Assembly (NCBI GenBank): GCA_018818165.1
Contig: JAHISP010000014.1
Span: 11,875 to 75,874, forward strand
Reading direction: 5' to 3'
From: Bacteroidota bacterium
GTDB taxonomy: Bacteria > Bacteroidota > Ignavibacteria > Ignavibacteriales > Melioribacteraceae
DNA length: 64,000 nt
This document shows positions 34,586 through 40,295 of this stretch, one piece after another; positions within the stretch are counted from its first letter, which is position 1, and each line of letters begins with the position of its first letter. Under the pieces are notes generated by a model. That model saw only the letters and a list, made by a program, of their open reading frames with translations, made no database searches and had not been told where the DNA came from. The position numbers were made by a program, and so were the translations under genes.

Positions 34586-34695
34586 AATTTCTCCAAAGTT
34601 ATTTTTTACTTTTATTGTGCTAAATTTAGTAAAAAAATAGAAAATTTAAACTCTTAAATTGCTCTATCTGGTTTCTAGAGTTTTTTAACATATTG

Positions 34696-34898
34696 TTTGC
34701 ATAAAAAGATTATAATAACTAATTTTTGCAAAGATATTTAGTAAATGAGGTTAATGAATTACTCTGCTTTACTTACCCCAAATTATTAACCGAAAATTGT
34801 GTGAATAAACAAAAAGGTGGAACGTTATAATGCAAAAATTTGCTTGATAACATTCCAAATTGCAACATTTTGTTGCGGATTAATATATAGTTAGTTGC
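34696..34898 (+). repeat. Left-boundary partial/rearranged junction unit
   Basis: 34696-34728 (TTTGCATAAAAAGATTATAATAACTAATTTTTG) and about 34732-34760 match the 3' part of the full units. An AACGTTATAA remnant lies at 34821-34830. The unit ends in G|TTAGTTGC (34890-34898). Confidence 0.6.
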
Positions 34899-34912
34899 TT
34901 AAAGGAGTTTCT

Positions 34913-35368
34913 ATGAAAAAAAATGTAATCATTTTTACTTTCCTTTTAACTGGAATTGTTTTTTGTCAGTCTTCAATTACTGTTAATAAATTAAGCACAT
35001 TTCCTGAGGATTATATTAATAAGGAAATATCATTTAAAGATATTTGGTGGTATCCAACCTTGGCTAGCTATAAAAACGATATTGATGGAAAAACATATTA
35101 TCAAGTAATGTTACAAATTAGTGCCTCAAATGAAGAAAAACATTTTGGAATGGGAGGCATGGATAAAATTATGGGAGTTGTAAACAAAAACATTGCTATG
35201 GAATTAACGAATGATAATAAGAATGGCTATGTTTATAATTATTTAGGGGATGTTTTTGGCAAAGTGATTAAGACGAAAACATTTGGAAGCGAATACTTTT
35301 TTGTAATTAAAAAAATCATTCATCATTCCCCTGAAGGAATCATAATAAAAACTTATAATAGTAAATGA
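34913..35368 (+). CDS. Cassette 1a: small secreted protein, unknown function
   Basis: ATG at 34913 preceded by AAAGGAG. Signal peptide MKKNVIIFTFLLTGIVFCQ. The stop overlaps the start of the next ORF (ATGA). Confidence 0.7.
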   Translation: MKKNVIIFTFLLTGIVFCQSSITVNKLSTFPEDYINKEISFKDIWWYPTLASYKNDIDGKTYYQVMLQISASNEEKHFGMGGMDKIMGVVNKNIAMELTNDNKNGYVYNYLGDVFGKVIKTKTFGSEYFFVIKKIIHHSPEGIIIKTYNSK

Positions 35369-35967
35369 TGATGGATATTTTTAGAAAAATCCCACATAAT
35401 TTATATCGAGGTGATTCAGACTCTCGAAACGAGAGAAAGCTAAAACAAACAATTAATCAAAACTGTCTTCTAACAAATTTGAGTAACTCTGGTAGTGGCA
35501 GAGAAATTTTCAGTAATCCACTTAAAAATTTAGTCTCAAAACACATTTCTCCTGGCTGGAGCAAAACCCATTTCTTATCATTTTCGGAAAGCAAAAAAAT
35601 TAGTATAAAGTATGGTAGTAGACAGAACAATAATTGTATTTTAACAAATTTGGACGACTGGGATTTCGTTGTTATAGTTTTTTCTAAGGAATTTATAATT
35701 AAAGAAACAATTAGAGAAACTGATGAGGGATGTTTCATTTTGGAATTTTGTACTGCCTCATTAGAATTCCATCCAGTTTATAAATTACTTGCTATAAATG
35801 TTTACATCTATCTTTGTTCTAAAAATGCGGATAATAATCTCAAAGAAAAAGCAAAGTTAGATAAGGAGTGGTTATTACTTCCCTTAAATCGTTTTGAGAA
35901 TGAATATACAAGCAAATTGGATATGTGTTGTATTTCTTCAGTAGAAAAATATAAATCCATATACTAA
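35365..35967 (+). CDS. Cassette 1b: 200-aa cytoplasmic protein, unknown function (weak R-S-E ADP-ribosyltransferase-like pattern)
   Basis: Translationally coupled to cassette 1a. Contains LYRGD, HFLSFSES and later acidic residues (DKEWLLLP). The family assignment is speculative. Confidence 0.6.
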   Translation: MMMDIFRKIPHNLYRGDSDSRNERKLKQTINQNCLLTNLSNSGSGREIFSNPLKNLVSKHISPGWSKTHFLSFSESKKISIKYGSRQNNNCILTNLDDWDFVVIVFSKEFIIKETIRETDEGCFILEFCTASLEFHPVYKLLAINVYIYLCSKNADNNLKEKAKLDKEWLLLPLNRFENEYTSKLDMCCISSVEKYKSIY

Positions 35968-35982
35968 GTTTTAATAAATGGC

Positions 35983-36379
35983 GCAACTAACGTTATAAGG
36001 ATTGATACCGAACGGAGCTGAGGTATAATCCGGTGTTGAGCTAAGCCGCAGCTACTACTTGTAATTTGCTTAAATGTTTTTAGGGGTGGGGTTATTTTAT
36101 TTTACTACAATTTTACTTTTGCTATGAGTTGTTTTGAATTACAAAAACCTTCGAGGTTATTGCCAAATTAGAAATTGTTTGTGAAGATACAACCTTTATA
36201 AATTAAAAAACCTCGAAGGTTTGGGCGTATTGCAAAAAAATAATAATTTGCTAAAAAAGATTATAATAACTAATTTTTGTCCACAAAGGTTGATATGTAT
36301 TTAAGTGGGATGAAATGAATAAATGTGGATTTATGTTTTTTTGCTTATTTACGGATGAAATTCTTTAAAGTTATACCTA
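35983..36379 (+). repeat. Junction unit U1 (full, ~0.4 kb): module A + module B
   Basis: Starts GCAACTAAC|GTTATAAGGATTGATACC 16 nt after the stop codon and ends ...AATTCTTTAAAG|TTATACCTA. From 36076 on it looks ~95% identical by eye to U2. Confidence 0.85.
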
Positions 36380-36389
36380 GTAAAAAATA

Positions 36390-37325
36390 ATGGAGACAAA
36401 ATTGAAAGTTGAAGCGAATAATGCACTATTCATCAAGTTAGGTTCAAAAGGTCGTTGGCAAAACGAATGTATTGAGAAAAATATAATAAAATTGGGTTTT
36501 GTTAGCTCTCTTGAAATACATAAAAAAAGTTTAAATAGAGAGTGGGATAGTGTAAAAAAATATTGGCTTAAAGAAAAAAAGAGAAAAGCAGAAGCAACAA
36601 AAATTGCTAATCAAATTAAATATTTTTATGAATGTGATGAAGATACACTTTGGATAACTTTTATAGATAAAAAACTTTATTGGTGTTTTGCAGAAAGTGG
36701 AGTTACGATCTTAAATGATGGAAACAGAATAAGAAAAGTTAAAGGGAAATGGAGTTGTAAAGATATTGAAGGTAATGTATTATTTGACGAAAATATTGGT
36801 GGAGCTATTGCACAAGTCCAAAGGTTTCAAGGGACAATTTGTAAGGTTTCTGCAAAAGAACAGTTATTGGACATAATTAATCTTAATAAATCAAATGATT
36901 TAAGAAATGCTGAAAATATTTTTGCTAATCTAAAGGGTAGTATTGTACCATTAATTAAAAATCTACATTGGAAAGATTTTGAATTACTTGTTGATTTAAT
37001 TTTCACGTCTTCTGGTTGGAGGAGAATTTCTGTTGTTGGGAAAGCTGAAAAGGACGTTGATCTAGAGTTGATGCAAAATGTAACCGAGGAAAAAGCATTT
37101 GTTCAAATAAAATCTAGATCAACAATGAAAGAATTTAATGACTACATTCAGATATATAAAAGAGAGAAGCAGTATAATAAAATGTATTTTGTAGTAAATA
37201 ATCTTTCAAAAGATTTTAGTGGGTGGAAAGATACAAATGAAATTAAATTACTCGATAATGAAAAGCTTTCACTATTAGTTCTTAATTCTGGATTAGTTAA
37301 TTGGTTATTTAAAAAATCAAAATAG
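36390..37325 (+). CDS. Cassette 2: Mrr-type (PD-(D/E)xK) restriction-endonuclease-like domain with an unknown N-terminal domain
   Basis: The C-terminal FELLVDLIFTSSGWRRISVVGKAEKDVDLEL...AFVQIKSRS fits the Mrr_cat pattern (D...E/QxK). The ~190 N-terminal aa are not recognised. Confidence 0.65.
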   Translation: METKLKVEANNALFIKLGSKGRWQNECIEKNIIKLGFVSSLEIHKKSLNREWDSVKKYWLKEKKRKAEATKIANQIKYFYECDEDTLWITFIDKKLYWCFAESGVTILNDGNRIRKVKGKWSCKDIEGNVLFDENIGGAIAQVQRFQGTICKVSAKEQLLDIINLNKSNDLRNAENIFANLKGSIVPLIKNLHWKDFELLVDLIFTSSGWRRISVVGKAEKDVDLELMQNVTEEKAFVQIKSRSTMKEFNDYIQIYKREKQYNKMYFVVNNLSKDFSGWKDTNEIKLLDNEKLSLLVLNSGLVNWLFKKSK

Positions 37326-37762
37326 GTATAACGTTATAAGGATTGATACCGAACCCCACAAAAAGAACGGGGTAAACTCCGCTGAGGTATATCACTTTGT
37401 GAGAGCTAAGCCGCAGCTACGACTTGTAATTTGCTTTTATGTTTTTTGGGGTAGGGTTATTTTATTTTACTACAATTTTACTTTTGCTATGAGTTGTTTT
37501 GAATTACAAAAACCTTCGAGGTTATTGCCAAATAAGAAATTGTTTATGAAGACACAACTTTTATAAATTAAAAACCTCGAAGGTTTGGGCGTATTGTAAA
37601 AAAAATAATAATTTGCTAAAAAATATTATAATAACTAATTTTTGTCCACAAATGTTGATAGTATTTAATTGGGATGAAATGAATGAATATGGTTTTTTTT
37701 GCTCATTTCCAGACCTGTCCTCCAGTTTTTATGGTGGATAAAATTCTTTAAAGTTAGCCCAT
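37323..37762 (+). repeat. Junction unit U2 (full, ~0.44 kb): module A + module B
   Basis: Starts TAGGTATAAC|GTTATAAGGATTGATACC, where the TAG is the upstream stop codon. Ends ...AATTCTTTAAAG|TTAGCCCAT. Relative to U1 it has a 24-nt insertion in module A and a ~30-nt insertion near the 3' end. Confidence 0.85.
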
Positions 37763-37784
37763 ATAATCAAAAAGGAGAACGCAC

Positions 37785-38231
37785 ATGAACTATGCGCGAA
37801 TGTTTCACAAGATAGGATCGTGGTCTTACGTGCTTCTTGGCATTGGCCATATCGCAACCCATTTGTTTTCACCTAAAACGCCTGAACAAGAGCAAATGAT
37901 TTTGCGCATGAAAGATTTTGCCATCGACATGCCAGGACCAGATTCAACGCTTTTTTTGTTCCATGAAGGCTTCAGCTTAATGATGGGTGTATTACTAATT
38001 AGTTATGGGATAGCAAATATTCTTTTCCTTTCATCGGATAGCCTCGACTCATTGACAAACAAACATATTGCTATGCTAAACATAATTGTCTCTTTAGTGG
38101 CAATGATTTTATCTGCAGTTTATTTTTTTATTGTACCAATTGCGTTCACCACTGCGTCACTCATAGCATTCGGGTTGGCGTTTGGTCTAACGCGTCGTTC
38201 CACCAGACGCACAAAAGCAGCGCGCCAGTGA
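37785..38231 (+). CDS. Cassette 3: 148-aa four-TM membrane protein, visibly GC-richer than its surroundings
   Basis: A strong SD (AAAGGAG) lies 8 nt upstream. Hydrophobic segments and a basic tail RRSTRRTKAARQ. Composition looks roughly 40+% GC by eye, against about one-third elsewhere. Confidence 0.7.
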   Translation: MNYARMFHKIGSWSYVLLGIGHIATHLFSPKTPEQEQMILRMKDFAIDMPGPDSTLFLFHEGFSLMMGVLLISYGIANILFLSSDSLDSLTNKHIAMLNIIVSLVAMILSAVYFFIVPIAFTTASLIAFGLAFGLTRRSTRRTKAARQ

Positions 38232-38318
38232 ACCTAAACGTTATGTACAAATACTAATTAATATTTTTTATTGTCTATATCTGCAAAACGTCTATTTTGA
38301 AAAGGAAGTTTAATCTTT

Positions 38319-39284
38319 ATGTTAAAAAATCTATATCCATTATATCCTTATGGTAAACTTGATGTTCAGTCAGAAGCAATTCTTCAAGAGATAGCAAAAT
38401 CGAATGGAAAACCCCTTGCTTCTATGACACCCAAAGAAGCTAGGGAATGTTTTTTGGAAAATTCATGGCTTGGAGCGCCTGACAAAAGCATCCAAATAAA
38501 AAATATTTATATCGATAATTCCGATAGTAATATTCCATTACGTATTTATACGCCAGAAGGGGAAGCGCCATTCCCAATACTTCTATTTTTTCATGGTGGA
38601 GGATTTGTGTTAGGCACTTTAGACGAGTTTGATTCATTTTGCACATTTCTGGCTAGTGGAGCTAACTGCATAGTAGTTTCTGTTGGTTATCGTTTGGCTC
38701 CGGAGAACAAACATCCAGCCGCTGTTGAAGATGCTCAAACTGCACTTAATTGGATTGCTGTCAACGCTTCTAAAATTCAAGGTGATGTTTCTCGAATTGC
38801 AGTTGCCGGAGATAGTGCCGGTGCTAATTTAGCTGCGGTAGCTTCTTTAATTGCACGAGACAAATCATTTCCAACATTACTTTGCCAAATACTCATTTGT
38901 CCTTGGCTTAATCTTTCGTCAACAGAGACAAATTCATATAAATATTTCGGAAATGGATTATGGCTCTCAACTACCAATATTCATTGGTATCGTAATCACT
39001 ATTTAAAAAACGATGATCAAGCAAAAACATATTTAGCCTCACCGTTGCTAGCAAAAAAACTAAGTGGATTGCCTTTCACGTTAATTATTACTGCCGAATA
39101 TGATGTATTGAGAGACGAAGGAGAATCATATGCAAATCGTTTGGAAGAAGAATCCGTCGTTGTGAAATACACAAATTATAAGGGAATGCTTCATGATTTT
39201 GTTATGTTACCGGGAATATTTAACAAGGCAAAAGAAGCCATAAATGAAATATGTTCAACGTTAAGAATGATTTTTAAAAATTAA
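38319..39284 (+). CDS. Cassette 4: alpha/beta-hydrolase esterase/lipase, hormone-sensitive-lipase (family IV) type
   Basis: Oxyanion motif FFHGGGF, nucleophile elbow GDSAGAN, acid DVLRDEG and His in MLHDF. Confidence 0.9.
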   Translation: MLKNLYPLYPYGKLDVQSEAILQEIAKSNGKPLASMTPKEARECFLENSWLGAPDKSIQIKNIYIDNSDSNIPLRIYTPEGEAPFPILLFFHGGGFVLGTLDEFDSFCTFLASGANCIVVSVGYRLAPENKHPAAVEDAQTALNWIAVNASKIQGDVSRIAVAGDSAGANLAAVASLIARDKSFPTLLCQILICPWLNLSSTETNSYKYFGNGLWLSTTNIHWYRNHYLKNDDQAKTYLASPLLAKKLSGLPFTLIITAEYDVLRDEGESYANRLEEESVVVKYTNYKGMLHDFVMLPGIFNKAKEAINEICSTLRMIFKN

Positions 39285-39329
39285 AGAGCGTTTCTCATTA
39301 CTAATTTCAATTTGGAAATTGTACTTAAT

Positions 39330-39432
39330 TTTATAAGGATTGATACCGAATCCCACAAAAAGAACGGGGTAAACTCTGCTGAGGTATATCACTTTGTACG
39401 AGCTAAGCCGCAACCACTACTTGTAATTTGCT
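39330..39432 (+). repeat. Junction element copy 3 (module A only)
   Basis: TTTATAAGGATTGATACCGAATCCCACAAAAAGAACGGGGTAAACTCTGCTGAGGTATATCAC...GAGCTAAGCCGCAACCACTACTTGTAATTTGCT. Aligns with 37333-37435 with a few substitutions. Module B is absent. Confidence 0.85.
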
Positions 39433-39483
39433 ATGGCGTTTTATATGTTGCAGGGCAAACGCAACGTAAATCATAAAAAATAA

Positions 39484-39801
39484 TTAGGAAGAAATGGTTC
39501 TTGCAATTTCTTTATTTGATGTTCCAAGAGCCAATAACGACCTAATAATTAAATCTATTGATACCGACGGATCGCCAGTTTCTAATTTTGCAACTCTTGA
39601 TTGACTTGATTTAATCATTCTCGCAAATTCTATTTGTGTTAATTTTCGGTCAATTCGCAATTTTCTTAAATTGGCACTCAACTTTAGTTTCAAATCAATA
39701 TATGATTCTTCTTCTTCGGTTAGTCCAAGAAAATCTTTTACTGAACCAATTTTCCAACCTTTTTTCTCAAGTATTTCTTGTTTTTCACTAGTCATTGTCA
39801 T
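39484..39801 (-). CDS. higA: HigA-like antitoxin (XRE-family HTH)
   Basis: HTH LTQIEFARMIKSSQSRVAKLE. Lies downstream of, and overlaps, the toxin gene (the reversed TA order typical of higBA). Confidence 0.75.
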   Translation of the reverse strand: MTMTSEKQEILEKKGWKIGSVKDFLGLTEEEESYIDLKLKLSANLRKLRIDRKLTQIEFARMIKSSQSRVAKLETGDPSVSIDLIIRSLLALGTSNKEIARTISS

Positions 39802-40120
39802 ATTCCTTAATTCTTTTTTTGCATACATCAATTACGGCTTTAGGTGTTTGTTGTGTTTTCTTGTTAAAAACATCAAGAATTACAATTGCATCACTATCAA
39901 TTCTATAAATAATTCGCCAAGTAACATTTTCATCATTTATTCTAAGTTCATGGCAATTTTTACCAATACTTGGTATTGGTCTTGAATGAGGCATACTCAA
40001 CTTTTCTTCCATTTGAAGCAACCTGAAAAGAAATCCAGCTTCAATTCTTGCCGAAGCAGAAAAGGGGGGAGTTTTAATTTCTCCATACAGCCAAATAAGA
40101 GGTTTATCAGGTTTTTTCAT
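39788..40120 (-). CDS. higB: HigB/Gp49-like RelE-superfamily toxin
   Basis: Start taken at the ATG at 40120 (MKKPDKPLIW). The pattern ...SIGKNCHELRINDENVTWRIIYRIDSDAIVILDVFNKKTQQTPK matches Gp49/HigB-type toxins. Confidence 0.7.
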   Translation of the reverse strand: MKKPDKPLIWLYGEIKTPPFSASARIEAGFLFRLLQMEEKLSMPHSRPIPSIGKNCHELRINDENVTWRIIYRIDSDAIVILDVFNKKTQQTPKAVIDVCKKRIKEYDND

Positions 40121-40131
40121 ATTATAAATAT

Positions 40132-40147
40132 ATGTCAAATATGACAT
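40132..40147. promoter_or_regulatory. Palindromic candidate operator in the TA promoter
   Basis: ATGTCA-AATA-TGACAT, a perfect 6-bp inverted repeat 12 nt upstream of the toxin ATG. Confidence 0.4.
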
Positions 40148-40234
40148 AATTTCAACAAAATAAACCAAAAGGTAGAGATAAAAGTTTACAAAATGGGCTT
40201 ATTGAAGACTCGATTAAACAGTCAAGGCAAGAAA

Positions 40235-40295
40235 ACATAACATTTTAATTAAAACTAAAAAAACAAAAAATTTAAGTTCTAAAATTCCGTTATGT
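40235..40295. repeat. 61-nt attC-like imperfect hairpin at the right edge of the array
   Basis: ACATAAC-ATTTTA ... TAAAAT-TCC-GTTATGT. The 7-nt outer boxes (..AAC / GTT..) are perfectly complementary, the inner 6-nt boxes pair with a 3-nt bulge, and the centre is A-rich. Confidence 0.45.

What the first reader, a model, noticed from the sequence alone, without database searches (positions are those of the whole stretch)
35992..36070. Module A: a ~80-105 nt conserved element immediately 3' of three different cassette ORFs
There are three copies: 35992-36070, 37333-37435 and 39330-39432. They share GTTATAAGGATTGATACCGAA ... GCTGAGGTATA ... GAGCTAAGCCGCA.C.AC.ACTTGTAATTTGCT. In copy 1, GGATTGATACC and GGTATAATCC form a 10-bp hairpin with one bulged G. 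Copies 2 and 3 carry a 24-nt insertion in the loop that forms its own CCCC/GGGG (or CCC/GGG) stem. In those copies CACAAA (or ACAAA) in the insertion can pair with TTTGTG (or TTTGT) downstream, replacing part of the copy-1 stem. Conservation is higher than in any neighbouring coding sequence. The position is fixed relative to the stop codons. The third copy occurs without module B. Module A is therefore a separable functional part: a recombination half-site, a 3'-UTR/terminator-like RNA, or a small ncRNA.
Basis: seen in the sequence. Interest (0 to 1): 0.65.

Follow-up and report, generated by a model that had tools for sequence, protein, structure and literature searches.

The report
Integron cassette recombination site (attC) arm
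The repeated element is the front half of the attC recombination sites that close each gene cassette in an integron-type array of an uncultured bacterium: a known kind of element, here in an unusually long, composite form.

Summary
The three copies are real and are the only ones in the window. They lie in a roughly 5.4-kb integron-type cassette array (about 34890-40295) with no integrase on the 76.8-kb contig, which makes it a CALIN. Each intact copy starts right after a cassette-specific R'' box (RYYYAAC). That box is the perfect 9-10-bp reverse complement of the first bases of its own cassette, the signature of an integron cassette.

Close homologues of two cassette genes in other metagenomes end with the same R'' box but continue into ordinary attC sites. 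Module A therefore occupies the attC interior, starting exactly 3' of the AAC.

Internally it carries two nested attC 5' arms:
- Arm a is GTTAT-AAGGATT.
- Arm b is a fossil arm, GTATAAT-CCGGT-GTTGAGC-TAAGCCGC.

In a third genome (L007) arm b pairs with a canonical 3' arm in a 135-nt attC. In the window, arm a pairs with the end of module B, so A+B is one 386/428-nt R''..R' interval.

Nothing supports an RNA reading: no Rfam match, folding energies like shuffled sequence, no compensatory changes, no terminator. This is a new member of a known kind, of moderate interest.

The parts
34890..34898 (+). R'-type box and start of cassette 1 (G|TTAGTTGC). This is the crossover point upstream of ORF157/ORF200.
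   Evidence: It is the exact 9-bp reverse complement of GCAACTAAC at 35983-35991. Only 4% of AAC-ending sites in the window have such a partner within 3.5 kb.
35985..35991 (+). R'' box of cassette 1 (AACTAAC), directly 5' of module A copy 1.
35992..36070 (+). Module A copy 1 (short form). Sub-parts: UCS GTTAT 35992-96; L''a AAGGATT 35997-36003; hairpin P1 35999-36009 / 36022-36031; fossil R''b GTATAAT 36023-29; UCS CCGGT 36030-34; L''b GTTGAGC 36035-41; extended stem arm TAAGCCGC 36042-49; start of the variable region up to 36070.
36071..36369 (+). Module B of unit 1, which forms the rest of the attC interval. It contains a long hairpin (36132-36237) and a promoter-like conserved block. It ends with L'a AATTCTT 36359-65 and spacer TAAA 36366-69.
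36370..36379 (+). R' box and start of cassette 2 (G|TTATACCTA).
   Evidence: It is the exact 10-bp reverse complement of TAGGTATAAC at 37323-37332. The chance of such a match is about 1%. The A+B repeat ends here (D11).
37326..37332 (+). R'' box of cassette 2 (GTATAAC), abutting the TAG stop of the Mrr-like ORF.
   Evidence: The homologous cassette in L022 has the same TAGGTATAAC.
37333..37435 (+). Module A copy 2 (long form). It has a 24-nt insertion in the P1 loop, and arm b is degenerate (GTATATC..GTGAGAGC).
37436..37759 (+). Module B of unit 2. It ends with L'a AATTCTT 37742-48, TAAA 37749-52 and R' GTTAGCC 37753-59, which is the start of cassette 3.
   Evidence: (the top-scoring 5'/3' arm combination of 4140 tried).
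38185..38246 (+). Ordinary 62-nt attC of the ORF148 cassette: GTCTAAC-GCGTC-GTTC(C)AC ... GTGAACC-TAAAC-GTTATGT. It overlaps the 3' end of the ORF.
   Evidence: The lineage attC covariance model scores it at 34.1 bits, E 9e-8, but it was one of the training sequences.
39323..39444 (+). Decayed site containing module A copy 3 (39330-39432). The R''-like box is ACTTAAT (AAC changed to AAT), there is no L' arm, and the R'-like box is GTTTTAT (39438-44).
   Evidence: no complement found; fold z = +1.5.
40235..40295 (+). Candidate terminal attC (ACATAAC ... GTTATGT) after the inverted HigB/HigA-like pair, and the probable end of the array.
   Evidence: The hairpin is closed by an 8-bp R-type stem, with z = -2.4. 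ACATAAC is the complement of the esterase cassette start TTATGT at 38241. A 7-bp match alone is not significant.

Best explanation
Module A is DNA, not an RNA gene. It is the 5' (R''-proximal) part of a lineage-specific family of integron attC recombination sites, in a chromosomal cassette array that has no integrase nearby (a CALIN) in an uncultured, probably Ignavibacteria-like bacterium.

Each cassette (ORF157+ORF200, the Mrr-like gene, ORF148, the esterase) starts at the TT of a G|TTRRRY box and ends with its own RYYYAAC (R'') box. Module A begins at the next base.

What the sequence shows:
- Module A holds two nested attC 5' arms: arm a (spacer GTTAT plus L'' AAGGATT) and arm b (R''-like GTATAAT, spacer, L'' GTTGAGC, stem arm TAAGCCGC).
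- Arm b is homologous to the ordinary attC arms of related genomes (for example GCTCAAGCCGACCGC).
- Arm b carries AAT in place of the invariant AAC.

What is inferred:
- By analogy with characterised integrons, an IntI-type integrase encoded elsewhere would fold the bottom strand. It would pair R'' with R' and L'' with L', and exchange strands at G|TT to excise or insert cassettes.
- In L007, arm b pairs with a canonical 3' arm inside a 135-nt attC.
- In window units 1 and 2, arm a pairs with AATTCTT-TAAA-GTTA at the end of module B. A+B is then one giant attC of 386/428 nt with a promoter-like module in its variable loop.
- Copy 3 and the L010 copy are decayed terminal sites.
- The high conservation reflects the usual homogeneity of attC sites within sedentary arrays.
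- The same interior sits behind different R'' boxes. That points to exchange exactly at the AAC of R'', by top-strand or R''-R'' recombination or by deletion.
For: 1. Cassette signature. The 9-10 nt ending in AAC just 5' of each intact copy are the perfect reverse complement of the sequence at the preceding GTT crossover, just upstream of that cassette's first ORF. This holds for window copies 1 and 2, L010 and L007, with 9, 10, 9 and 10 bp. Background rates are 4% for >=9 bp and 1% for >=10 bp.

2. Neighbouring sites are ordinary attC sites.
- Window 38185-38246 has the layout R''-5-L''(extra C)...L'-5-R'.
- L010 carries three cassettes with sites of 184-225 nt that fold as R-box/L-box hairpins.
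- L046, L045 and L022 hold arrays of the same kind.

3. Homologous cassettes keep the R'' box but have a different interior.
- The 87%-identical homologue of the L007 protein ends GAAGCCTAAC and is followed by a 51-nt canonical attC.
- The 54%-identical Mrr homologue ends TAGGTATAAC and is followed by a 225-nt canonical attC.

4. The boundaries of the A+B repeat are exactly TAAC...GTTA.

5. Unbiased scans of arm geometry.
- L007 arm b with GCTCAAA-TGCC-GTTATAC scores 12-13 of 14, the top of 1485 combinations.
- Window arm a with the end of B scores 13 of 14 in the circularised cassettes, the top of about 4000 combinations. For unit 2 it is also top in the array context.

6. DNA folds of the circularised cassettes close the R box. 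For L007 they give an R stem, an L stem and hairpin P1 as a three-way junction.

7. Context.
- The ORFs are co-oriented with the sites.
- A toxin-antitoxin pair sits in the array, along with a defence-like Mrr gene.
- Integrons are already reported in Ignavibacteriae and Chlorobi (PMC9024848).
- Short-read assemblies break at the repeats.
Against: - No integron integrase is present in the window or on the rest of the 76.8-kb contig, nor next to the L010 array. Activity is therefore unproven, and the array is identical in every assembly found.
- The R''..R' intervals of 386 and 428 nt far exceed the 20-100-nt variable regions described for attC sites (PMC4889954).
- The arm a/L' match of 6 of 7 has an equally good competitor inside module B at 36156, so its significance rests on the independently fixed crossover point.
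- Three overlapping attC-like readings use the same bases: arm a, arm b, and a compact 58-nt site ending in GTTGAGC. They cannot all be functional.
- A covariance model of the lineage's canonical sites does not detect module A. That model cannot span long loops and is sequence-specific, so the test is weak.
- Only five sequences from three genomes are known.
Confidence: 0.8

Rival explanations
1. Module A acts as RNA in the 3' UTR of the cassette mRNA, as a terminator, a stabilising hairpin or a processed small RNA. Its conservation would then reflect RNA structure.
For: It lies 7-45 nt after stop codons on the coding strand. Hairpin P1 exists in the short form. The two substitutions in the L010 copy keep P1 as G.U pairs on the + strand, whereas they would be A.C mismatches on the other strand.
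Against: - No Rfam family matches at gathering or at E<=10.
- MFE z-scores are +0.50, -0.63 and +0.67, no better than shuffles.
- There are 0 compensatory pairs, and 3 of the 10 P1 pairs are broken in copies 2 and 3.
- There is no + strand terminator-like site and no U-tract.
- The element's left edge tracks the R'' box, not the stop codon.
Confidence: 0.06
2. The short form of module A carries an outward sigma-70-type promoter, TTGATA-16 nt-TATAAT at 36002-36029. It would drive the conserved 3' part of the module and the next cassette. The AAC-to-AAT change in the fossil R'' box would have been kept because it creates a perfect -10 box. This reading could coexist with the attC explanation.
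For: It is the best promoter-like match in 34600-39600, at 11 of 12. The match is kept at 10 of 12, with 16-17-nt spacing, in L010 and L007. The strongly conserved blocks GAGCTAAGCCGCA..ACTTGTAATTTGC begin where such a transcript would start.
Against: - The number of promoter-like hits in the region equals the shuffle expectation, 24 against 25.5.
- The 24-nt insertion separates the two hexamers in copies 2 and 3.
- The organism belongs to a group in which housekeeping promoters may follow a different consensus (own knowledge), and module B already carries a conserved promoter-like block of that other type.
- No transcript data are available.
Confidence: 0.12
3. The 5' segment of about 30-50 nt (GTTATAAGGATTGATACC...GCTGAG) is a small mobile insertion, or the remnant of one: a MITE, an IS1111-attC-type element or a group IIC-attC intron relic. 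It would target attC sites next to the R'' box. Module A would then be an ordinary attC with a parasite inside it.
For: - Removing the segment leaves R'' followed by an arm resembling canonical ones (AAGCCGC..).
- The junction is always exactly AAC|GTTATAA, in five different cassettes.
- A related 20-nt stretch lies upstream of another R''-like box in L007.
- Elements that target attC sites are known (own knowledge).
Against: - There are no terminal inverted repeats or target duplication.
- Nothing similar is found in plasmids or phages, in viral contigs or elsewhere in the window.
- The segment contains no ribozyme or intron domain that Rfam recognises.
- The segment is never seen without arm b.
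Confidence: 0.1
4. The copies are only the by-product of recent tandem duplication of an intergenic region, with no function of their own.
For: Units 1 and 2 (A+B) are about 95% identical over roughly 400 nt.
Against: - The genes between the copies are unrelated.
- The R'' boxes differ between the copies, and each one matches the start of its own cassette.
- The element recurs behind unrelated genes in two other genomes.
Confidence: 0.02

Closest known systems
attC sites of sedentary chromosomal integrons (for example the Vibrio cholerae repeats, VCRs)
   Same: - It sits at the 3' end of co-oriented, mostly promoterless ORFs.
- It begins with RYYYAAC, and the interval ends with GTTRRRY.
- The R'' box is complementary to the cassette's first bases.
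- L-type boxes lie at the canonical 5/4-nt spacing.
- Sequence identity between sites of one array is high.
- A toxin-antitoxin module lies in the array.
   Different: - It has two nested 5' arms, one of them with a mutated AAC triplet.
- An extra hairpin sits between R'' and L''.
- The R''..R' distance is 386-428 nt in the window, against 20-100 nt for the variable regions described for attC sites (PMC4889954).
- A promoter-like module lies inside the site.
- No integrase is nearby.
CALIN (cluster of attC sites lacking an integron integrase; Cury et al. 2016, PMC4889954)
   Same: At least two attC-type sites lie less than 4 kb apart on one strand, with no intI in the neighbourhood. Here there are four to six sites over about 5.4 kb.
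   Different: CALINs are defined by hits of the IntegronFinder covariance model, which was not available here. With such long loops, most of these sites would probably be missed by default settings (my inference).
attI and hybrid attI/attC junctions
   Same: The first crossover point of the array (34890) follows a promoter-plus-leader module, as attI follows Pc. Part of module A resembles the sequence at the start of the L007 array.
   Different: No integrase gene lies next to it. The same leader module occurs in mid-array in L010. It is therefore better read as the inside of an attC interval than as an attI.
REP/BIME-type intergenic repeats and 3'-UTR stabiliser hairpins
   Same: It is a short conserved repeat with a hairpin just after stop codons.
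   Different: There are only three copies in 64 kb, all in one array. The repeat is tied to R''/R' boxes and cassette boundaries, and its folding stability does not exceed that of shuffled sequence.

Membership tests
integron attC site | An R'' box RYYYAAC at the 5' end with the invariant AAC triplet. | tested here: met
   The boxes are AACTAAC (copy 1), GTATAAC (copy 2), and GCCTAAC (L010, L007). That is 6-7 of 7 positions, with AAC intact. Copy 3 has ACTTAAT and is decayed.
integron attC site | An R' box GTTRRRY at the 3' end, with the crossover at G|TT, immediately before the next cassette. | tested here: met
   The boxes are GTTATAC at 36370, GTTAGCC at 37753, and GTTATAC in L007. The A+B repeat identity stops at GTTA. 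Copy 3 (GTTTTAT) and L010 do not meet this feature.
integron attC site | A cassette's R'' box is complementary to the R' half carried at the cassette's own 5' end, which restores a paired R box in the circular cassette. | tested here: met
   Perfect complements of 9, 10, 9 and 10 bp are found at the expected places. The chance rates are 4% and 1%. Folds of the circularised cassettes close this stem.
integron attC site | L''/L' boxes at about 5 and 4 nt from the R boxes, which pair imperfectly and leave extrahelical bases. | tested here: met
   L007 arm b (GTTGAGC/GCTCAAA) pairs at 6-7 of 7. Window arm a (AAGGATT/AATTCTT) pairs at 6 of 7, at 5/4 spacing, and is the top of the scans. A competitor of equal score exists inside module B. 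The polarity of the extrahelical bases was not resolved.
integron attC site | A variable terminal structure of moderate length (20-100 nt in described sites, PMC4889954). | tested here: not met
   The window intervals are 386 and 428 nt. L007 is 135 nt, within the range. Canonical sites of related genomes are 51-225 nt. Length is descriptive rather than defining.
integron attC site | Recombined by an integron integrase through the folded bottom strand. | not testable with these tools
   This needs a recombination assay. The two G.T-tolerant changes in L010 would be A.C mismatches on the bottom strand, which is a weak hint against bottom-strand selection on hairpin P1.
complete integron | An intI gene (a tyrosine recombinase with the IntI-specific insertion) and an attI next to the array. 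| tested here: not met
   No recombinase domain is found among the ORFs of at least 150 aa that were scanned. None is found among the called genes of the rest of the contig or next to the L010 array.
CALIN | At least two attC sites within 4 kb on one strand, with no integron integrase nearby. | tested here: met
   The sites lie at 35985-36376, 37326-37759 and 38185-38246, with decayed or candidate sites at 39323-39444 and 40235-40295. All were identified by feature, not with the IntegronFinder model.
any Rfam RNA family | A score at or above the family's gathering threshold. | tested here: not met
   There are 0 matches in the window at gathering. Nothing overlaps module A at E<=10.
intrinsic terminator | A GC-rich stem-loop followed by a T-run on the coding strand. 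| tested here: not met
   There is no + strand site in or next to any copy.

The most novel reading that the evidence does not exclude
Module A (with B) may be a self-spreading 'attC interior'. In this reading a composite recombination-site module carries its own promoter and is transferred onto unrelated cassettes by strand exchange exactly at the AAC of their R'' box, through top-strand or R''-R'' recombination. It would replace their ordinary attC and give each captured gene its own promoter. That would be a route of attC turnover and cassette expression not described for integrons, operating in arrays whose sites are several times longer than those current finders accept.
Probability: 0.15. 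Interest if true: 0.6.

Novelty: new member of a known kind. Interest (0 to 1): 0.3.

Why it matters
It turns an unexplained conserved repeat into a standard annotation. The region 34890-40295 is an integron-type cassette array, and the repeat marks cassette ends.

Two points reach beyond this locus:
- In this lineage the attC intervals are long: 150-230 nt in related genomes and about 400 nt here. They can also hold promoter-like modules. Tools tuned to loops of 20-100 nt will probably under-call such arrays in FCB-group genomes.
- Homologous cassettes share an R'' box but carry different attC interiors. These pairs give dated, sequence-level examples of attC replacement with a breakpoint at the AAC triplet. 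That bears on the open question of how cassettes acquire and exchange their recombination sites.

Tried and rejected
- Rfam, at gathering and at E<=10, found nothing at module A.
- Single-sequence folding of both strands as RNA gave z-scores near zero.
- The covariation count on five sequences found no compensatory change.
- Coding potential was rejected. There are stops in all + frames, and a 1-nt indel between copy 1 and L010/L007 breaks the one open reverse frame (reading).
- Terminator scan: no site on the + strand.
- DNA pattern scans:
  - Two genome-contig scans found 0 hits, then 2 chance hits in coding DNA.
  - Two viral-contig scans found 0 hits.
  - The metagenome scan gave 2 real hits and 1 chance hit.
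- BLAST of the A+B unit against plasmids and phages found no match.
- nhmmer with the five-copy profile over all fetched loci found no further copies.
- A covariance model (R1) built from 13 loop-collapsed canonical attC sites of related arrays recovers only short sites. It cannot span long loops, so it neither supports nor excludes module A.
- A compact 58-nt attC wholly inside module A was considered (R''a, P1 as the L box, R' = GTTGAGC). I do not prefer it, for three reasons:
  - No cassette starts with TTGAGC.
  - GTTGAGC is lost in copies 2 and 3.
  - The proven crossover points lie at 36370 and 37753.
- Reading the promoter-plus-leader module as an attI was rejected because the same module lies in mid-array in L010.
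- Naming the organism failed, because the cluster look-ups return no names.

Full report
**Observation.**
The three copies exist as described, at 35992-36070, 37333-37435 and 39330-39432 on the + strand. They are the only copies in the 64-kb window. GAGCTAAGCCGCA with up to 2 mismatches occurs three times against 0.34 expected, and no shuffle reaches three. The other blocks add only chance hits.

The hairpin GGATTGATACC/GGTATAATCC with a bulged G is in the MFE fold of copy 1. Copies 2 and 3 carry a 23-24-nt insertion with its own CCCC/GGGG stem. Copy 3 lacks module B.

Two details are wrong:
- The distance from the stop codon is 24, 7 and 45 nt, so it is not fixed.
- The hairpin is partly broken in copies 2 and 3.

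The conserved unit in fact begins 4 nt earlier, at TAAC. In copies 1 and 2 it runs on through module B to a terminal GTTA (35988-36373 and 37329-37756).

**Surroundings.**
The copies lie in a block of unrelated, co-oriented genes:
- ORF157 and ORF200, with no known family.
- An Mrr-like nuclease of 311 aa.
- ORF148.
- An Abhydrolase_3 esterase.

The block sits between a DUF2461 gene and an inverted HigB/HigA-like pair. The rest of the window is housekeeping: secretion and pilus genes, two-component systems, and metabolism. No recombinase or transposase was found, and none is present on the remaining 12.7 kb of the source contig. The same arrangement occurs in every other assembly that carries these proteins. 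Short-read contigs break at the A/B repeats.

**Relatives of the element.**
- Two pattern scans of one genome per species gave nothing, then two chance hits in coding DNA.
- Viral contigs, plasmids and phages gave nothing.
- The metagenome scan gave two true homologues of the short form. One follows a TonB_C-type gene on a contig that was then recovered at greater length as L010. The other follows an unrelated 276-aa gene (L007).

The family is therefore rare. It is known from three related genomes and five distinct sequences, about 91-95% identical over ungapped columns.

**What the neighbourhood of the homologues shows.**
L010 carries a textbook integron cassette array. It is a run of small co-oriented ORFs. 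Each is followed by a site that begins with RYYYAAC plus a 5-nt spacer plus an L'' box (for example ACCTAAC AAGCC GCTCAAG CCGACCGC). Each site ends with ...GCC GTTAGGC just before the next ORF. One such site folds as the expected long imperfect hairpin closed by the R box.

In that array module A begins immediately after the R'' box GCCTAAC of the TonB_C cassette. The window also holds one ordinary 62-nt attC after ORF148 (38185-38246): GTCTAAC-GCGTC-GTTC[C]AC...GTGAACC-TAAAC-GTTATGT, with the extra base on the L'' side.

**The cassette test.**
In an integron cassette, the first bases (the TTRRRY.. half of an R' box) are complementary to the cassette's own R'' box. For every intact module A copy, the 9-10 nt ending in AAC directly 5' of the element have a perfect reverse complement at the crossover just upstream of that cassette's first ORF:

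| Copy | R'' side | Cassette start | Length |
|---|---|---|---|
| Window copy 1 | GCAACTAAC | GTTAGTTGC at 34890 | 9 bp |
| Window copy 2 | TAGGTATAAC | GTTATACCTA at 36370 | 10 bp |
| L010 | GAGCCTAAC | GTTAGGCTC | 9 bp |
| L007 | GAAGCCTAAC | GTTAGGCTTC | 10 bp |

Among all 1233 AAC-ending positions of the window, only 4% have such a partner of 9 bp or more anywhere within 3.5 kb, and 1% have one of 10 bp or more. This fixes the cassette boundaries at 34890, 36370, 37753 and 38240. It also places module A, together with module B in units 1 and 2, inside the R''..R' interval, which is inside the attC.

**Homologous cassettes with ordinary sites.**
The Mrr-like protein has many homologues, several of them from Ignavibacteria MAGs and mostly on very short contigs. 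One, at 54% identity in L022, sits in a cassette array and ends ...TAG GTATAAC, exactly as in the window. It then continues CAGCC AATCAAC CCGAC...GTTATAC, a canonical 225-nt attC.

The L007 protein has an 87%-identical homologue in L045. Its gene ends with the same GAAGCCTAAC, followed by a canonical 51-nt attC, AAGCA AATCAAC...AACACC GTTAGGT.

In two independent gene families, then, the R'' box is shared and the interior is either ordinary or module A. The breakpoint falls exactly after AAC.

**Anatomy of module A (copy 1 coordinates).**
After the cassette's R'' box (35985-91), module A reads as follows:
- GTTAT (35992-96).
- AAGGATT (35997-36003), which is arm a.
- Hairpin P1 (35999-36009 with 36022-36031).
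- Arm b, a second complete 5' arm in canonical 7-5-7 spacing: GTATAAT (36023-29), CCGGT, GTTGAGC (36035-41), then TAAGCCGC.

Arm b resembles the canonical arms of related arrays (GCTCAAGCCGACCGC) but has AAT in place of the invariant AAC.

An exhaustive scan of all 5'/3' arm combinations gave these results:
- In L007, arm b with GCTCAAA-TGCC-GTTATAC is the best of 1485 combinations, at 12-13 of 14 pairs.
- In the window, arm a with AATTCTT-TAAA-GTTA at the end of module B is the best of about 4000 combinations in the circularised cassettes, at 13 of 14 pairs. For unit 2 it is also best in the array context.

DNA folds of the circularised cassettes close the R box. For L007 they give an R stem, an L stem and P1 as a side branch.

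A caveat applies. An equally good L' candidate lies inside module B at 36156. A third, compact reading overlaps the same bases (R''a, P1 as the L box, GTTGAGC as R'). The internal assignment is therefore less certain than the overall one.

Copy 3 has a decayed R''-like box (ACTTAAT), no L' arm and a degenerate R' (GTTTTAT), and it does not fold. The L010 copy also lacks a 3' partner.

**Mechanism.**
Shown here:
- The cassette boundaries.
- The R and L box complementarity.
- Homology of arm b to canonical arms.
- Replacement of the attC interior at AAC.

Inferred from the established integron model (PMC4889954):
- An IntI-type integrase encoded elsewhere folds the bottom strand, binds the R and L boxes and exchanges strands at G|TT. 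Module A supplies the R''/L'' half of that substrate.

Also inferred:
- The same interior behind different R'' boxes arose by exchange or deletion at the R'' AAC. One route would be rare top-strand recombination, whose cleavage would fall at AA|C of R''.

With no integrase in reach and an invariant array across samples, the array may be static at present.

**RNA readings.**
- No Rfam family matches.
- Folding energies on either strand match shuffled sequence.
- The two proposed helices show no compensatory change. There are only two one-sided G.U changes, and three pairs are broken in the long form.
- No terminator-like site lies on the coding strand.

One observation remains open. The arms of P1 coincide with the best sigma-70-like promoter match of the region, TTGATA-16-TATAAT at 11 of 12. 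Its -10 box is the mutated R'' box of arm b. It is kept at 10 of 12 in the other two genomes and split by the insertion in copies 2 and 3. This could be a secondary function or a coincidence.

**Comparison and novelty.**
The element works like, and meets the sequence-level criteria of, an attC site in a CALIN. Integrons are already reported in Ignavibacteriae and Chlorobi (PMC9024848).

It departs from described sites in three ways:
- It has duplicated 5' arms.
- It has a branch hairpin.
- Its R''..R' distance is about 400 nt in the window, whereas variable regions are described as 20-100 nt (PMC4889954). Canonical sites in the related arrays seen here measure 51-225 nt.

I file it as a new member of a known kind. 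Its unusual architecture is worth a specialist's look but does not change the category.

Noticed in passing
window 40235-40295: This is a candidate terminal attC, ACATAAC...GTTATGT, with a perfect R-type stem and a fold z of -2.4. ACATAAC is the exact complement of the esterase cassette start (TTATGT at 38241). The esterase, module A copy 3 and the inverted HigB/HigA-like pair may therefore form one fused cassette, with the array ending here.
   Followed up: partly
window 36002-36029 (also L010 and L007 copies): A near-consensus sigma-70-type promoter (TTGATA-16-TATAAT, 11 of 12) coincides with the two arms of hairpin P1. Its -10 box is the fossil R'' box with AAC mutated to AAT. The promoter is split by the 24-nt insertion in copies 2 and 3.
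   Followed up: partly
window 34683-34890; 36234-36295; 37599-37660; L010 5520-5860 and 7235-7540: A conserved promoter-like block (TTTGC.TAAAAAG..TAATTTTTG) plus a 'leader' recurs upstream of the first cassette, inside module B, and twice in the L010 array. One of the L010 copies lies inside an R''..R' interval. In this lineage, promoter-bearing modules appear to sit inside attC sites.
   Followed up: partly
window 36132-36237 and 37497-37604 (module B): Module B contains a long, nearly perfect hairpin (AAAACCTTCGAGGTT...AACCTCGAAGGTTT) that is present in both copies. It gave spurious weak microRNA-family hits in Rfam.
   Followed up: no
window 34821-34830: The 10-mer AACGTTATAA, which forms the R''/module A junction of copies 1 and 2, occurs a third time in the leader, 60 nt before the first cassette. 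A weak 52-nt attC-like stretch follows it (34845-34896).
   Followed up: partly
L007 748-780: Upstream of the first cassette of L007, TAAGGATTAATAATCAAAAT resembles the 5' segment of module A (AAAGGATTAATACCAAAAT). It is followed by a perfect R''-type box, ATCTAAC. The segment may be a recurrent pre-R'' element.
   Followed up: no
window 36390-37325: The Mrr-like cassette protein matches the PADLOC candidate defence family PDC-S02 (E 1.2e-7). It has hundreds of homologues, mostly on 1-4-kb contigs, and several of those inspected lie in cassette arrays. This fits reports that integron cassettes store defence genes.
   Followed up: partly
window 38185-38231: The last 15 codons of ORF148 lie inside its own attC, and the stop codon falls within the site. 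The C-terminal RRSTRRTKAARQ may therefore be encoded by recombination-site sequence.
   Followed up: no
L010 9740-9900: About four tandem repeats of roughly 36-40 nt (..AGCAAGAAAAAGCAAAAGGTGGAGCTTCGAGCAAAT..) lie between the module A copy and the next promoter-like block. A single unit also occurs at L010 7150-7215.
   Followed up: no
L045, L046, L010, L022: Canonical attC sites in these related arrays are mostly 157-225 nt long, with AT-rich interiors. That is longer than the range usually described, so default integron finders may under-call arrays in this group.
   Followed up: partly
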